Shown here in pieces: positions 278-12,601 of a stretch of DNA of 58,550 nucleotides. Below the pieces are notes generated by a model, which was not told where the DNA came from, searched no databases, and saw only the letters and a program-made list of their open reading frames with translations. The stretch covers positions 1 through 58,550 of the forward strand of contig PBQM01000038.1 in assembly GCA_002725015.1 (NCBI GenBank), in the 5' to 3' direction. The translations under genes were made by a program, and so were the position numbers. This DNA comes from Flavobacteriaceae bacterium. GTDB taxonomy: Bacteria; Bacteroidota; Bacteroidia; Flavobacteriales; Flavobacteriaceae. How positions within the stretch are numbered: the stretch's first letter is position 1; the number at the start of each line of letters is the position of its first letter.

Positions 278-1309
278 ATGGCAAGCTTGAAGCAAATTGG
301 AAGTCTATTAGAAAGGTCATTTGAAAAATGGGATTATCAAAAAGCTATTAAGTTTAGTGGAAATGAATCTGAAACAAGAGATTATTTAATTGAACCTTTT
401 TTTGAACAACTTGGATACAACAAGATGGAACACTACTCACACGAGTTTAGTCTGTCTTTTGGTAAGGGGAAAGTTAAAAAAGTAGATATGGTTATCTCCA
501 TCAATGGTAAAAAACCTATTATGCTTATTGAGTGTAAAAAGGCAGGCGTAAAGCTTAACAAAAATCACTATAATCAACTTGCTGAATACTTTAAACATCA
601 TAAGGAATCTAAAATTGGTGTCTTAACTAATGGTGTTCAATATGAGTTTTATTCAGTTAAATGGAATGATGAAAAAAACTTGAGTAAAACACCTTTTTTA
701 ATTTTTGACTTAGAAGACTTTACACGAGCAGATTTAGAGGACATAGCTCACTTTCACATACAACACTTTGAAGTTAATAATATTCTTTCAATTTCTGATG
801 AAAAATACTTCTTAGAAGACTTTGATAAAGCCTTAGTAAACACACTTTATCCTGCAAGTAATGAATTTAGAAGGCTTGTTTATCAGAATATGGGGGGAGT
901 AAGGATGACTGAAAAAATAAGTGATAGAATTTTTAAACTTATTAATTCTATTTCTTTACAAGACGCAATTGAAAAAGTAAAAGTTTTGGAGGGTAAAAGC
1001 TCAAGCAAAGGAGTGTACACAACCTCCTTAGAGCTCAAAGCCTTTCAAATCATAAAAACAATTTTAGCATTAACATCTAAATTAAAAAATCAACTTAACA
1101 GAGTTTCATATAAAGACTACAAAGGACATTTAAAAATTATTGTTGATAATATGCCATCTAAAGAAATATGCAATTTGGTTTTAAATGAAAAAACTCAGAA
1201 AATACAATTTAATAATGACAGTTATGAGTTAGCTAAGGTTTCAGCTGAAGAAATTGCTAAACATAAAAAAAGAATTGTAGAAGAAGCAATAATTCAATTG
1301 TTAGATTAA
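278..1309 (+). CDS. HsdR N-terminal (PD-(D/E)XK) domain nuclease, COG4748-like stand-alone restriction-endonuclease-like protein
   Basis: Motifs NESETRDYLIEPFFEQLGY, KKVDMVI...PIMLIECKK, QLAEYF, GVLTNGVQYEFYS, PFLIFDL and C-terminal TTSLELKAFQIIKTIL; no helicase motifs. Confidence 0.8.
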   Translation: MASLKQIGSLLERSFEKWDYQKAIKFSGNESETRDYLIEPFFEQLGYNKMEHYSHEFSLSFGKGKVKKVDMVISINGKKPIMLIECKKAGVKLNKNHYNQLAEYFKHHKESKIGVLTNGVQYEFYSVKWNDEKNLSKTPFLIFDLEDFTRADLEDIAHFHIQHFEVNNILSISDEKYFLEDFDKALVNTLYPASNEFRRLVYQNMGGVRMTEKISDRIFKLINSISLQDAIEKVKVLEGKSSSKGVYTTSLELKAFQIIKTILALTSKLKNQLNRVSYKDYKGHLKIIVDNMPSKEICNLVLNEKTQKIQFNNDSYELAKVSAEEIAKHKKRIVEEAIIQLLD

Positions 1310-1310
1310 A

Positions 1311-1332
1311 TGTCTGTCAATTGTCTGTCAAT
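1311..1332 (+). repeat. Tandem 11-bp direct repeat TGTCTGTCAAT x2, putative integrase arm-type sites
   Basis: Exact duplication directly after the nuclease stop codon, ~97 bp from the tRNA 3' end. Confidence 0.7.
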
Positions 1333-1386
1333 TTTTGTAATTTTAAAGTGTTCTTTTGCTAATTGTATCAATCTGGATTATGTCCA

Positions 1387-1416
1387 CAAAAAAAGGCCTA
1401 CATTAATGTAAGCCTT
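1387..1416 (-). terminator. Intrinsic terminator downstream of the tRNA
   Basis: Hairpin AAGGC-C-TACAT-TA-ATGTA-A-GCCTT followed on the minus strand by a T-run. Confidence 0.7.
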
Positions 1417-1428
1417 AGATTTTGCTTG

Positions 1429-1502
1429 TGGTCCCACTTGGGCTCGAACCAAGGACCCTCTGATTATGAGTCAGATGCTCTAACCAACTGAGCTATGGGA
1501 CC
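1429..1502 (-). tRNA. tRNA with CAT anticodon, most likely tRNA-Ile2 (lysidine type); tRNA-Met not excluded
   Basis: Minus strand GGTCCCATAGCTCAGTTGGTTAGAGCATCTGACTCATAATCAGAGGGTCCTTGGTTCGAGCCCAAGTGGGACCA folds as a cloverleaf; anticodon arm TCTGA-CTCATAA-TCAGA resembles ileX-type GACTCATAATC; paired G1-C72 argues against initiator; CCA not encoded. Confidence 0.93.
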
Positions 1503-1550
1503 TAAAGAGGCTGCAATATTACGACCATTTTCGAACATCTCAAAGCCTCC

Positions 1551-1574
1551 TATAAATTTCATAAATGGTCAAGG
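1551..1574 (+). repeat. Direct repeat copy 1 (TATAAATTTCATAAATGGTCAAGG)
   Basis: Identical to 2835-2858; imperfect similarity extends over roughly 1527-1586. Confidence 0.9.
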
Positions 1575-1629
1575 GCAAAGCTATAATTACTTTTCCATAA
1601 TACTTAAGAACTCATTAAATTTACTAAAA

Positions 1630-1651
1630 ACTGACAGACTTTTGACAGATA
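1630..1651 (-). repeat. Second pair of 11-bp-period TCTGTCA repeats, inverted relative to 1311-1332
   Basis: TGACAGA at 1632-1638 and 1643-1649; minus strand reads TATCTGTCAAA/AGTCTGTCAGT. Confidence 0.65.
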
Positions 1652-1770
1652 CTGGCTTTTAGTGTTTTCCCAAAAGGCTTTTTACCAAAGCTACTGTGCT
1701 TCAAAAAGTTTATTACTTTTAATGACATATTTAACAAACTAATTTTAAATTGAACATTACAAAAAAAATC

Positions 1771-2769
1771 ATGCTCACATCGCCAATATTAAAAATTATT
1801 AGAGTTGTATTATTTTCCATCACTTTTATTTGCTTCGGGCAAACAAATAATGATGTTACAATTATTAAAAATTCTGGATTAAATCTAATAGATAAAAGCG
1901 CTAAAATTGAAGCCTTAGGAGGTTCATTTATTGTAAGTGAGGGGCCTTTGTGGGATTCCGAAAATAATGAGTTGATATTTAGCGATGTAAGACAAAATAA
2001 AATTTTTACTTGGTCAGAGTCTAATGGTATTAAAGAATATATATTACCTAGCGGATCTACTGGCTATGCTCCTTCATTTAAAAAGGGAGGTATTGGTTCT
2101 AATGGGCTAGCATTTGACAAAGATGGTGATATAATTTTATGTCAACATGGAGACAGACGAATTGCAAGTATTTCAAATACTGCTACCATTAATCCAAATT
2201 TCAAAACCATCATTGATAACTATAATGGTAAAAGATTTAACAGCCCAAATGACCTGTCAATTAGCTCAGATGGTGACATATATTTCACAGATCCCCCATA
2301 TGGGTTTTATTATAATCAAAAAACTTTTGATGATAAATTTAGAGAGTTAGATTTTAATGGTGTTTTTAAACAATCGAAAGATGGGTCATTGCATTTGATT
2401 ACCAAAGAAATGTCTTTGCCCAATGGAATAGCATTGTCTAATGATGAAAAATATGTTTATGTAAATAACTGCGGAACTGAAGACCCGAAAATCATGAAAT
2501 TTAATACCTCAACTTTTGAGGGTAAACTTTTTTTTGATGGTTCGGAGTTAAGTAAAAAACACAAAGGATGTTTTGATGGCTTAAAAGTACACAGCTCTGG
2601 AAATATATTTACAACAGCTCCAAACGGAATTCTAATAATATCTCCAGAAGGAGTTCTAATTGCAACAATAAATTATGGCAAACCAATTACCAATTGCAAC
2701 TTTGATACAAATGAACAATACTTATATGTAACGGGTTTTGATAATATATCGCGAATAAAACTAAAGTAA
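1771..2769 (+). CDS. SMP-30/gluconolactonase/LRE family protein, secreted
   Basis: SEGPLW, GSNGL, RFNSPNDL, YFTDPPYG, PNGIALS, DGLKV motifs; signal peptide; ATG at 1771 preferred over TTG at 1750. Confidence 0.9.
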   Translation: MLTSPILKIIRVVLFSITFICFGQTNNDVTIIKNSGLNLIDKSAKIEALGGSFIVSEGPLWDSENNELIFSDVRQNKIFTWSESNGIKEYILPSGSTGYAPSFKKGGIGSNGLAFDKDGDIILCQHGDRRIASISNTATINPNFKTIIDNYNGKRFNSPNDLSISSDGDIYFTDPPYGFYYNQKTFDDKFRELDFNGVFKQSKDGSLHLITKEMSLPNGIALSNDEKYVYVNNCGTEDPKIMKFNTSTFEGKLFFDGSELSKKHKGCFDGLKVHSSGNIFTTAPNGILIISPEGVLIATINYGKPITNCNFDTNEQYLYVTGFDNISRIKLK

Positions 2770-2834
2770 AATCCCGATCCATAGGGACCTCTTCTTATTT
2801 ATGCCCTGCTGTTTTTAAACAACTCAAAGCATTG

Positions 2835-2858
2835 TATAAATTTCATAAATGGTCAAGG
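2835..2858 (+). repeat. Direct repeat copy 2 (TATAAATTTCATAAATGGTCAAGG)
   Basis: Identical to 1551-1574; imperfect similarity extends over roughly 2813-2872. Confidence 0.9.
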
Positions 2859-2892
2859 TGCAAATCCATAATAAATATAGTATTTTTACCCC

Positions 2893-3285
2893 ATGGAAAG
2901 TCAACGACAAAAAAAAATCGCCTCGGTTTTACAATCGGATTTGGTAGAAGTTTTACAAGGAGCTGCCAGAGAGGGTGGACTTAGGGGGGTCATTATATCG
3001 GTTACCAAAGTCGCTGTGACCGTTGATTTATCGATTGCCAAAGTTTATCTCAGTATTTTTCCAGTTAAACAGGCTCAGTTACTGATTGAAGGCATTATTT
3101 CCAACGCCCCTATGATCAAACACGAGTTGGCCCAGCGCACCAAACACCAACTCAGGCGCATGCCAGAATTGTTGTTTTTTTTGGACGACTCTTTGGAATA
3201 TATCGATCAAATTGACCAGGCTTTAAGACAACCTGAGAGTCCCATCGAAAATCCAGATTTGCTTGACAAAAGAAAAAAAATCTAA
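2893..3285 (+). CDS. rbfA: 30S ribosome-binding factor A
   Basis: RQKKIAS...VTVDLSIAKVYLS...LRRMPELLFFLDDSLEY. Confidence 0.95.
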   Translation: MESQRQKKIASVLQSDLVEVLQGAAREGGLRGVIISVTKVAVTVDLSIAKVYLSIFPVKQAQLLIEGIISNAPMIKHELAQRTKHQLRRMPELLFFLDDSLEYIDQIDQALRQPESPIENPDLLDKRKKI

Positions 3286-11233: not shown

Positions 11234-12601
11234 ATGATTTTAAAACCCAATGAAATAAAACACAAAGTTGATGGATTTCTGGCCTTGGTACGACAGCGGA
11301 ATAATCTTGAACCAGAATTTTTACAAGCTGTAGAGGAAGTTGCTGAAACCGTGATCCCCTATATTGTCCAAAATGACATTTATCACGGTAAAAATATTTT
11401 ACTTCGAATGGTAGAACCCGAAAGAGCCCTCATGTTTAGAGTCAACTGGGTTGATGACAAAGGCGAAATCCGAGTTAACAGAGGGTATCGCATTCAGATG
11501 AACTCTGCAATTGGGCCCTACAAAGGCGGGCTGCGCTTTCATCCCTCAGTAAATATGAGTATTTTAAAGTTTTTAGCTTTCGAACAAGTCTTTAAAAACA
11601 GTTTGACTACCCTTCCAATGGGGGGCGCAAAAGGTGGTAGTGATTTTAATCCCAAAGGCAGAAGTTACAATGAAATTATGCGTTTTTGCCATGCTTTTAT
11701 GAGCGAGTTGTTCCGACACATAGGGCCCAACACAGATGTACCTGCTGGAGATATCGGCGTTGGTGGCAGAGAAATAGGCTTTTTATTCGGGATGTATAAG
11801 AAATTAAAAAATGAATTTACCGGTGTCTTAACAGGGAAAGGAGTCACTTGGGGAGGCTCCCTTATTCGACCTGAAGCCACTGGCTATGGAACGGTCTATT
11901 TTGCTCAAAAAATGCTGCAAACTAAAGGAGATGATATCAAAGGTAAAACTGTAACCATATCCGGTTCTGGAAACGTGGCTCAGTTTGCTGCAGAAAAGAT
12001 TATTCAACTCGGAGGTAAAGTGATTACTCTTTCCGATTCCTCAGGCTATATTTTAGACTCTCAAGGCATTGACAAAGAGAAGTTAAGCTTTGTTATGGAT
12101 TTAAAAAATAACAAGCGCGGCCGTATCAGTGCTTACGTTAAAGCCTATCCGAACGCTCAATTTTTTGCCCAAAAAACCCCTTGGGAACAACCTTGCGATA
12201 TTGCAATGCCATCTGCCACTCAAAATGAATTGACAGGTTCAGATGCCAAGACATTGCTCGAAAACGGCTGTATTTGCGTGAGTGAGGGCGCCAATATGCC
12301 ATCGACCAAAGAAGCCGTTGCCGTTTTTCAAAAAGCTCAAATTTTATTTGCACCCGGAAAAGCGTCCAATGCTGGCGGTGTTGCGACTTCTGGTTTGGAA
12401 ATGACTCAAAATTCACTGCGTTACAATTGGACAAGAGAAGAGGTTGATGAGAAGCTTAAAGACATCATGGGGAACATTCATGACAAATGCATTGCCTACG
12501 GAAAAGACCCGGAAACGGGCTATATAGATTATGTCAAAGGCGCCAATATTGCTGGTTTTGTCAAGGTCGCTGACGCCATGCTAGCCCAGGGAATTGTATG
12601 A
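11234..12601 (+). CDS. gdhA: NADP-specific glutamate dehydrogenase
   Basis: GPYKGGLRFHPSV, PMGGAKGG, DVPAGDIGVG, RPEATGYG, GSGNVA, EGANMP. Confidence 0.95.
   Translation: MILKPNEIKHKVDGFLALVRQRNNLEPEFLQAVEEVAETVIPYIVQNDIYHGKNILLRMVEPERALMFRVNWVDDKGEIRVNRGYRIQMNSAIGPYKGGLRFHPSVNMSILKFLAFEQVFKNSLTTLPMGGAKGGSDFNPKGRSYNEIMRFCHAFMSELFRHIGPNTDVPAGDIGVGGREIGFLFGMYKKLKNEFTGVLTGKGVTWGGSLIRPEATGYGTVYFAQKMLQTKGDDIKGKTVTISGSGNVAQFAAEKIIQLGGKVITLSDSSGYILDSQGIDKEKLSFVMDLKNNKRGRISAYVKAYPNAQFFAQKTPWEQPCDIAMPSATQNELTGSDAKTLLENGCICVSEGANMPSTKEAVAVFQKAQILFAPGKASNAGGVATSGLEMTQNSLRYNWTREEVDEKLKDIMGNIHDKCIAYGKDPETGYIDYVKGANIAGFVKVADAMLAQGIV

What the first reader, a model, noticed from the sequence alone, without database searches (positions are those of the whole stretch)
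1527..2872. Integrase-less 1284-bp gene cassette inserted on the 5' (promoter) side of a tRNA, flanked by a 24-bp direct repeat
Seen: TATAAATTTCATAAATGGTCAAGG occurs exactly at 1551-1574 and 2835-2858, with imperfect similarity over ~60 bp (CTCAAAGC...GCAAA.C.ATAAT). Between the copies lie only an arm-like repeat pair and one AT-rich secreted gluconolactonase gene. The duplicated stretch includes the likely -33 TTTG of the tRNA promoter (1541-1544, minus strand). Known: tyrosine-integrase elements duplicate a core att sequence, usually the tRNA 3' end rather than the upstream region. Inference: this is a minimal cargo cassette with no enzyme of its own, inserted at a non-tRNA att site in the tRNA/rbfA divergent promoter region, possibly by the neighbouring island's integrase acting in trans.
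Basis: partly seen in the sequence, partly recalled or inferred. Interest (0 to 1): 0.72.

Follow-up and report, generated by a model that had tools for sequence, protein, structure and literature searches.

The report
Worn tRNA island keeps integrase tail
The repeat-flanked gluconolactonase-family gene beside this tRNA is real extra DNA, but it is likely the worn remains of a small integrase island that entered on the tRNA's upstream side and kept only the last 45 bases of its own integrase gene, a tail that in related marine bacteria separates gene cassettes that are likely swappable.

Summary
In detail: the 24-mer occurs exactly twice, 1284 bp apart, inside a 61-bp 85% repeat. Independent sequencing runs confirm the junctions, and relatives have single-copy and other-cargo alleles. 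The interpretation needs changing. The 24-mer is host tRNA/rbfA intergenic DNA, not an att core. Bases 2777-2821 are the decayed 3' tail of a tyrosine integrase (rank 4 of 2,880,698 genome positions). That family forms 4-7 kb tRNA islands in marine Flavobacteriaceae and has the same TGACAGAC arm end as 1588-1721. In 6 of 41 such islands the element lies upstream of the tRNA, and the complete one (L131) duplicates upstream DNA, as here. The cassette is therefore most likely such an island after deletion of its integrase. Against the closest relative, cargo changes at the arm end and at the tail edge, not at the 24-mer. In relatives, tail copies separate units that recur with different neighbours (16 of 19 pairs); this scan noted that system before on other DNA (e1-5268736). 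Not in those notes: near-identical integrases switch side of the tRNA, and the tRNA is inverted between its arm ends in two relatives. No empty site or circle appeared in 8 runs.

The parts
278..1309 (+). HsdR_N-domain gene; cargo of a separate island on the 3' side of the tRNA, patchy among strains
   Evidence: PF13588 E 1.3e-15; covered in pieces or not at all in 4 DNA runs; another strain has the native-type terminator here (X15)
1311..1355 (-). Downstream arm end (tandem TGTCTGTCAA at 1311-1320 and 1322-1331), inverted copy of the arm part of 1588-1721
   Evidence: 84% over 44 nt to 1606-1649
1393..1416 (-). Terminator-like hairpin after the tRNA
1428..1502 (-). tRNA(CAT), likely Ile2 (by elimination among three CAT types; inferred)
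1514..1544 (-). Predicted tRNA promoter (-7 at 1514-1521, -33 at 1541-1544)
   Evidence: sequence; consensus recalled
1528..1587 (+). Left copy of the 61-bp repeat (exact 24-mer at 1551-1574): tRNA/rbfA intergenic DNA, present once in empty relatives
1588..1721 (+). Element end E: tandem TGACAGAC arm-like sites (1630-1651) and a likely outward promoter for the cargo
   Evidence: matches in 19 of 22 genus genomes, next to tRNA-Ile2, Asn, His, Ala; same motif just before integrase start codons
1771..2769 (+). SMP-30/gluconolactonase-family gene, the present cargo; N-terminus looks like a signal peptide (read by eye)
2777..2821 (-). Decayed 3' tail (last 15 codons) of a tyrosine-integrase gene of the P0001 family
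   Evidence: 32 of 45 bases equal to the profile of 26 intact tails; rank 4 of 2,880,698 positions; G015 orthologue E 4e-4
2812..2872 (+). Right copy of the 61-bp repeat (exact 24-mer at 2835-2858), joined to the tail through a shared TTTyTAAAC motif and continuing into the rbfA upstream region
2893..3285 (+). rbfA (host core gene)
   Evidence: PF02033

Best explanation
The segment is likely the remnant of a small tyrosine-integrase island that integrated on the upstream side of the tRNA and then likely lost its integrase by deletion, leaving the arm end at 1588-1721, one cargo gene and the 45-base integrase tail at 2777-2821. Steps: (1, shown in relatives) islands of this family are built as tRNA - arm end E - cargo - opposing integrase - arm - tRNA fragment, and a minority lie upstream of the tRNA and duplicate the tRNA 5' part plus upstream DNA. 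(2, inferred) such an element, carrying about 85 bp of this clade's tRNA upstream DNA, recombined in the tRNA, probably at the anticodon arm. (3, inferred) a deletion from the integrase tail to the host copy of the upstream DNA, at a shared TTTyTAAAC motif, removed most of the integrase and the old tRNA 5' fragment; the 61-bp repeat is what is left of the duplication. (4, boundaries shown, enzyme inferred) the gene between E and the tail was later exchanged; different lineages hold different genes there. (5, orientation shown, mechanism inferred) the tRNA, now between two inverted arm ends, has flipped in G015 and G019. In this species the cassette appears fixed.
For: Tail vestige. Same E-cargo-integrase order in complete islands L041 (G010) and L131. 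40 of 41 integrase loci have tRNA sequence just upstream; 6 of 41 have a 5' fragment. L131 duplicates 34 bp of upstream DNA plus 43 nt of tRNA, 4045 bp apart, with E upstream of the intact tRNA. E lies upstream of an intact tRNA-Ile2 at the same junction in G000, G009, G015, G019 and L046, with five different cargo genes; in G019 the cargo is also followed by a tail (E 5e-8). G009 looks like a further-deleted state with only a 9-bp duplicate. G000/G015 homology ends at 1721 and resumes at 2779. Integrases 91-97% identical sit on opposite sides of different tRNAs, including Ile2, so the enzyme does not fix the side.
Against: No complete upstream-side island at tRNA-Ile2 was found: all 6 are at tRNA-Ala(GGC), whose anticodon arm is nearly palindromic, unlike that of Ile2. 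No tRNA fragment remains at the right end of the window cassette. On its own the window tail is weak by nhmmer (E 0.18 in the window, 4.4 in the genome) and is clear only with the 45-nt profile and the G015 orthologue. The order of events (insertion before inversion) is not resolved; the host tree puts E-bearing alleles in two clades with the empty alleles inside one of them, key node support 0.38. Whether step 3 was made by the integrase or by an ordinary deletion cannot be told.
Confidence: 0.68

Rival explanations
1. Same parts, other order: the arrangement began with an inversion or inverted duplication of the tRNA and its upstream DNA next to an ordinary downstream-side island (the G015/G019 state), and the window state arose by flipping the tRNA back between the inverted arm ends. 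No upstream-side integration at Ile2 ever took place.
For: G015 and G019 have the tRNA inverted relative to the host flanks, with arm pairs on both sides. In G015 the run terminator - arms - ORF - tail is what a decayed downstream-side island looks like. No complete upstream-side Ile2 island among 41 loci.
Against: A plain inversion does not duplicate the 61 bp; an extra step is needed. The window and G009 have the tRNA orientation seen in the other genus members read. Upstream duplication is directly seen in L131.
Confidence: 0.19
2. One reading: a 1284-bp enzyme-free cassette was inserted at a non-tRNA att core (the 24-mer or the 61-mer) by an integrase acting in trans, and can leave again.
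For: Exact direct repeat, single-copy alleles in related species, other cargo after the same left end. The right junction falls on the left arm of a core-like inverted repeat in the integrase tail (seen in the site consensus), so an integrase-made junction is possible.
Against: The cassette holds its own integrase tail; cargo boundaries are E and the tail, not the 24-mer; the copies are inverted in G015; arm sites lie at the left end only; no empty-site or circle joint in 8 runs (contigs drop rare variants); no family integrase in the own genome (73.7% complete).
Confidence: 0.09
3. An ordinary local duplication plus illegitimate gene insertion with no link to integrases; the tail and arm matches are chance in AT-rich DNA.
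For: AT-rich region; weak nhmmer score for the window tail alone; the idea that the 24-mer itself derives from E did not pass a shuffle control clearly.
Against: Tail profile score 12.1 bits against -1.8 for the best background position, in the expected place and strand; E is conserved in 19 of 22 genus genomes and tied to integrase loci.
Confidence: 0.04

Closest known systems
Tyrosine-integrase genomic islands in tRNA genes (Islander; PMC4383910, passages read), especially the rare class with a 5' tRNA fragment (159 of 3919 islands)
   Same: Intact tRNA at one end, displaced fragment and integrase at the other in complete relatives (L041, L131); arm-like sites at both ends; tandem arrays.
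   Different: The window copy has lost the fragment and all but 45 bases of the integrase and is under 2 kb, so Islander's filters would reject it. Near-identical integrases use four tRNAs and both sides. Cargo units are separated by integrase-tail copies.
Tycheposons and additive flexible islands at tRNAs of marine bacteria (10.1101/2020.12.28.424599 and PMC7771536, passages read)
   Same: Small cargo elements at tRNAs, with fragmented integrases and partial tRNAs left as remnants; a transient integrase and long-lived cargo.
   Different: Those integrases are described as tRNA-specific; these are not. No replication or packaging module was apparent in the ORF lists of L041 and L131 (read by eye, not searched). 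Remnant tails here have a preferred length and bound recurring units.
Integrons and integrase-less cassette clusters (CALIN) (recalled; PMC8618304 seen as a search listing only)
   Same: In relatives: arrays of mostly one-gene units between repeated sites next to a tyrosine recombinase, units recurring with new neighbours, cargo stop codon often inside the site edge.
   Different: The integrase is not IntI (22 bits against a cut-off of 265); the site does not fold as an attC hairpin; the site is the integrase gene's own 3' end; many units carry their own -7 promoter motif.
Archaeal pTN3-like integrases, whose attB is the 5' half of a tRNA and which cause inversions (PMC8371274, passages read)
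   Same: 5'-side tRNA targeting; inversions linked to integrase elements.
   Different: Archaeal, with the integrase gene split on integration; here the gene is intact in complete islands and no relationship between the enzymes was tested.

Membership tests
tRNA-targeting tyrosine-integrase island (Islander definition) | Intact tRNA at one end | tested here: met
tRNA-targeting tyrosine-integrase island (Islander definition) | Integrase gene inside the island | tested here: not met
   Only a 45-base tail in the window; intact PF00589 genes in relatives L041, L131. Filed as a remnant, not as a current member.
tRNA-targeting tyrosine-integrase island (Islander definition) | Displaced tRNA fragment at the far end | tested here: not met
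   No tRNA match between 1503 and 3300; present in L131 and L041
tRNA-targeting tyrosine-integrase island (Islander definition) | Arm-type sites at element ends | tested here: inconclusive
   Tandem motif conserved at both ends of complete islands and at 1630-1651; binding not testable here
tRNA-targeting tyrosine-integrase island (Islander definition) | Crossover in the anticodon loop | tested here: inconclusive
   3' fragments start at nt 5-32 and 5' fragments end at nt 43-51, so both cover the anticodon loop; the cut site itself was not mapped
Integron / CALIN | IntI-type integrase | tested here: not met
   TIGR02249 22 bits against a cut-off of 265 for two family members
Integron / CALIN | attC sites folding as single-strand hairpins | tested here: not met
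   z from -1.06 to +0.50 for both strands of three tail stretches
Integron / CALIN | Site-bounded units that recur in new neighbourhoods | tested here: met
   16 of 19 homologous unit pairs differ on both sides; shown in relatives and in own contig C73, not for the SGL unit itself
Integron / CALIN | Integrase-catalysed excision and insertion of cassettes | not testable with these tools
   needs an assay
   G000/G015 boundaries at 1721 and 2779; copies inverted in G015
   G016, G021, L045, L047, L048, L049, L052; all in a sister clade, none in the same species
   none listed in 8 runs, but all were contigs, which drop rare variants
Tycheposon | Tycheposon hallmark integrase and replication genes | not tested
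   no profiles on hand; ORF lists of L041 and L131 show only an integrase and cargo

The most novel reading that the evidence does not exclude
Marine Flavobacteriaceae have a two-site gene-capture platform. One integrase docks small islands on either side of several tRNAs, switching target and side without changing its sequence, and also recombines at a second site inside its own 3' end, so that cargo genes are stacked and swapped as tail-bounded cassettes. The window shows the end state: a one-slot cassette on a tRNA that has become an invertible hub between two arm ends, with hub inversion as the route that turns downstream-side islands into upstream-side ones.
Probability: 0.4. Interest if true: 0.8.

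Novelty: new variant of a known kind. Interest (0 to 1): 0.56.

Why it matters
The locus itself is a fixed, decayed remnant. Its value is as a readable case of how streamlined marine flavobacteria gain and swap single genes at tRNAs. Standard island finders need an integrase, a tRNA fragment and 2 kb, so they miss these remnants. The arm end and the integrase tail are two short markers that would let this flexible gene pool be mapped. If the tail is a true recombination site, this is an integron-like system built from a different integrase with a different kind of site, and it can be tested with one small enzyme and short DNA substrates. Integrases 91-97% identical on different tRNAs and on opposite sides also give a direct way to test how att specificity and direction change.

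Tried and rejected
Dispersed repeat or assembly artefact: rejected. My first idea that the bases before the right repeat are a decayed tRNA 5' end: dropped, they match the integrase tail. The idea that the 24-mer region is itself an older relic of E: only suggestive, alignment score 77.5 against a shuffle maximum of 72 for G003 and 52.5 against 54.5 for G016; not claimed. Phage origin: no exact match of the arm pattern and no integrase relative in viral contigs. Helper in the own genome: three PF00589 matches (two Xer-sized genes of 302-303 aa and one weak 57-aa frame), none related to P0001 at E 1e-4; the genome is 73.7% complete. PF13102 integrases of the genus (14 loci, XerC-like genes included) showed no tandem arm next to them. 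attC-like folding: not found. Rfam gave only the tRNA and overlapping or sub-threshold matches. SGL relatives in 5 of 21 genus genomes are 48-51% identical; 1 of 5 loci has a tail nearby and none has E, so mobility of this gene as a unit was not shown. Depths were not used as shares of cells, and the RNA runs do not show transcription. The G015 identity figures printed are invalid (wrong strand; off by one base) and are not used. The integrase tree is the quick tree, and tRNA-His loci are mislabelled there as Asn or Ala; only pairwise identities are relied on. Tail conservation at protein level is partly built in, because one search pattern was the C-terminal peptide. Literature: searches found no description of this family or of tail-bounded arrays in the held library; most subscription papers and bioRxiv supplements are not covered, and Williams 2002 could not be read (recalled only).

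Full report
Observation. The 24-mer is at 1551-1574 and 2835-2858 and has no further match in the window at up to 3 mismatches (chance mean 0.01). It lies in a 61-column repeat, 1528-1587 / 2812-2872, 85% identical. In the own genome (G000, 1.44 Mb, 73.7% complete; the window is contig C38) nothing else matches with fewer than 5 mismatches. A tRNA(CAT) lies at 1428-1502 minus, an SGL-family gene at 1771-2769 and rbfA at 2893-3285. Contigs from other runs bridge both repeat copies (X4 2710-2918; X15 1428-1875 and 2333-2918, X6 1478-1649).

Alleles. rbfA was found in 18 of 21 other genus genomes; 17 had readable upstream DNA. Eleven have another gene between tRNA and rbfA. G016 and G021 have one copy of the 24-mer (1-2 mismatches) and no insert; G002 and G003 have short spacers without it; G009 has one copy followed by the same arm end and a truncated gene; G015, the closest relative, has two copies. 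A metagenome pattern scan returned 7 contigs: 5 single-copy, 1 (L046) with the arm end and another gene, and 1 with the window's allele. So the 24-mer is host intergenic DNA of this clade. In G015 the block matching window 1428-1721 is inverted relative to rbfA and leads into another gene, while 2779-3000 is 95% identical and preceded by a third gene. The exchanged part therefore runs from about 1722 to 2778, not from repeat to repeat.

The arm end. The 140-bp stretch after the left repeat (E) has matches in 19 of 22 genus genomes. It usually lies just downstream of tRNA-Ile2, Asn, His or Ala(GGC) and reads into small cargo genes. It lies upstream of an intact tRNA at Ile2 in G000, G009, G015 and G019, and at Ala in G009, G011 and G015. 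In all four Ile2 genomes an inverted arm pair also lies downstream.

The enzyme. In the complete genome G010 the Ile2 array ends in an opposing 348-aa tyrosine integrase (P0001, PF00589), followed by a tRNA 3' fragment. The genome collection holds 246 related stretches; 76 loci were returned, mostly marine Flavobacteriaceae by title. Among 41 distinct loci whose alignment starts near the integrase N-terminus and spans over 200 residues, 30 have a tRNA 3' fragment just upstream in the opposite direction, 2 a whole tRNA in that direction, 6 a 5' fragment in the same direction, 2 a whole tRNA in the same direction and 1 none (a looser count gave 5 of 44 with a 5' fragment). The arm motif also occurs right before many integrase start codons. 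L131 is a complete upstream-side island: 34 bp of upstream DNA plus 43 nt of tRNA-Ala are duplicated 4045 bp apart, with an intact integrase at one end and E upstream of the intact tRNA at the other. Islander lists 159 of 3919 islands with 5' fragments (PMC4383910, passages), so the class is known but rare. Integrases on opposite sides of different tRNAs are 91-97% identical: L131 (5', Ala) against L213 (3', Ile2) 259 of 284; L215 (5', Ala) against L212 (3', Asn) 242 of 250.

The vestige. A profile of the last 45 bases of 26 intact integrase genes scores window 2777-2821 at 12.1 bits, rank 4 of 2,880,698 positions in the own genome. The three higher scores are other tails and the next background score is -1.8; 32 of 45 bases match without gaps. 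The place and strand are those of the integrase in complete islands. A broader nhmmer model scored it weakly (E 0.18 in the window) and its G015 orthologue at E 4e-4. The tail ends where a TTTyTAAAC motif is shared with the start of the right repeat. G019 likewise has E, one gene and a tail upstream of its tRNA.

Mechanism. Shown: the parts, their order, the allele series, the cargo boundaries, and the existence of upstream-side islands that duplicate upstream DNA. Inferred: an upstream-side island carrying about 85 bp of host upstream DNA entered tRNA-Ile2; a deletion from the tail to the host copy removed the integrase and the tRNA fragment and left the 61-bp repeat; cargo was exchanged between E and the tail; the tRNA flipped between inverted arm ends in G015 and G019. 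I give this 0.68. The main gap is that no complete upstream-side island at Ile2 was found; all six are at Ala(GGC), whose anticodon arm is nearly palindromic. An inversion-first history (0.19) uses the same parts. No empty-site or circle joint was listed in 6 DNA and 2 RNA runs from 8 studies, but these are contigs and drop rare variants. No family integrase was found in the own genome; 11 of 22 genus genomes have a match, many only tails.

The wider system. Integrase tails recur between cargo genes: 219 distinct sites in the loci held, in arrays of up to 14. Their inner boundary peaks about 70 bases from the stop (52 sites at profile positions 49-52) with a wide spread around it. A cargo ORF ends at the TAA of the outer edge in 53 of 213 sites; 25 run on in a second frame and none in the third. 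Of 91 tail-to-tail units, 21 pairs are homologous over their length; 2 lacked context, and of the other 19, 16 differ in both neighbours (the pairs share units and are not independent). This works like an integron array, but the family fails the integron tests: TIGR02249 22 bits against 265 and no attC-like fold. Tandem insertion followed by deletion and homologous exchange could also give such arrays; only an assay can decide. I reached this reading, and the look-up then showed that the scan had noted the tail system (e1-5268736) and the tRNA hopping (e1-3866773) on other genomes. Those notes are not independent support. The other cassette notes listed describe, by their short text, attC-like systems of another kind and were not used.

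Known systems and novelty. The closest kinds are tRNA islands of tyrosine integrases (PMC4383910, passages), tycheposons and additive islands, which also leave fragmented integrases (10.1101/2020.12.28.424599 and PMC7771536, passages), and, for 5' targeting and inversions, archaeal pTN3-like integrases (PMC8371274, passages). Eight searches found no description of this family in the held library, which lacks most subscription papers. Verdict: a real feature and a new variant of a known kind. The locus is a decayed, apparently fixed remnant; the family behind it is the interesting part. Interest 0.56; novel case 0.4 likely, 0.8 if true.

Noticed in passing
G000:C50:10236-11221: A second full tRNA(CAT) with the native-type terminator ends this contig, with a 3' tRNA fragment 870 bp further on and one gene between. 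It is probably the alternative left flank of the window's tRNA in another strain (X15 shows such a flank).
   Followed up: partly
window 1428-1502: The window tRNA differs from the C50 copy at two bases in the 3' half and equals the G010 type there, as expected for a hybrid made by a downstream-side insertion.
   Followed up: partly
G000:C73:707-1446 (L198); also C11:171-231 and C50:8532-8589: The own genome holds further integrase tails. The C73 tail-to-tail unit (536 bp) is 93% identical to units in two different tRNA arrays of G010, which are 99.6% identical to each other and have different neighbours.
   Followed up: yes
window 1769: A 1-base insertion relative to the window in 6 of 8 runs; it moves TTG 1750 out of frame and points to ATG 1771 as the start.
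   Followed up: partly
L009, L010, L012-L020 (upstream of rbfA): 11 of 17 genus genomes with readable upstream DNA have a gene that looks like methylmalonyl-CoA epimerase (label recalled) between the tRNA and rbfA. It is missing from this position in the window's clade, perhaps lost through island activity.
   Followed up: no
L131:7876-7918 and 11921-11995: The tRNA-Ala(GGC) anticodon arm is palindromic except for its central base, which may let islands enter in either direction; all 6 upstream-side islands found are at this tRNA.
   Followed up: partly
L202:4997-5438 (G009); L201:1-468 (G011): tRNA-Ala(GGC) also sits between two inverted arm ends; in G009 cargo genes read away from it on both sides, and in G011 the contig ends inside the upstream arm end.
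   Followed up: partly
26 intact integrases: The last codons D, P and V use one codon in 26, 25 and 26 of 26 genes, unlike synonymous sites elsewhere, which suggests a DNA-level role for the last 16 bp. A cargo ORF stops at the TAA of this edge in 53 of 213 sites, in 25 protein families.
   Followed up: partly
L062:1878-3087 (G010): A second, unrelated integrase (Arm-DNA-bind_5 domain) sits at a tRNA-Ala 3' fragment with its own GGTCCC repeats, ahead of an arm end of the family described here.
   Followed up: no
L041:6706-6760 (G010): The displaced tRNA fragment is preceded by a D-arm-like stretch interrupted by about 20 extra bases; the exact duplication is 196 bp and runs through the terminator and promoter into the first cargo codons.
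   Followed up: no
many cargo genes, e.g. L048, L122, L131: Unrelated cargo lipoproteins share a nearly identical N-terminal signal sequence, a possible further point of exchange.
   Followed up: no
L162, L178: Records titled as Rokubacteria and Paceibacteria carry this flavobacterial integrase or its tail; binning error or transfer.
   Followed up: no
L163, L174: Arrays with 12 and 14 tail sites, including two tails only 41 bp apart.
   Followed up: partly
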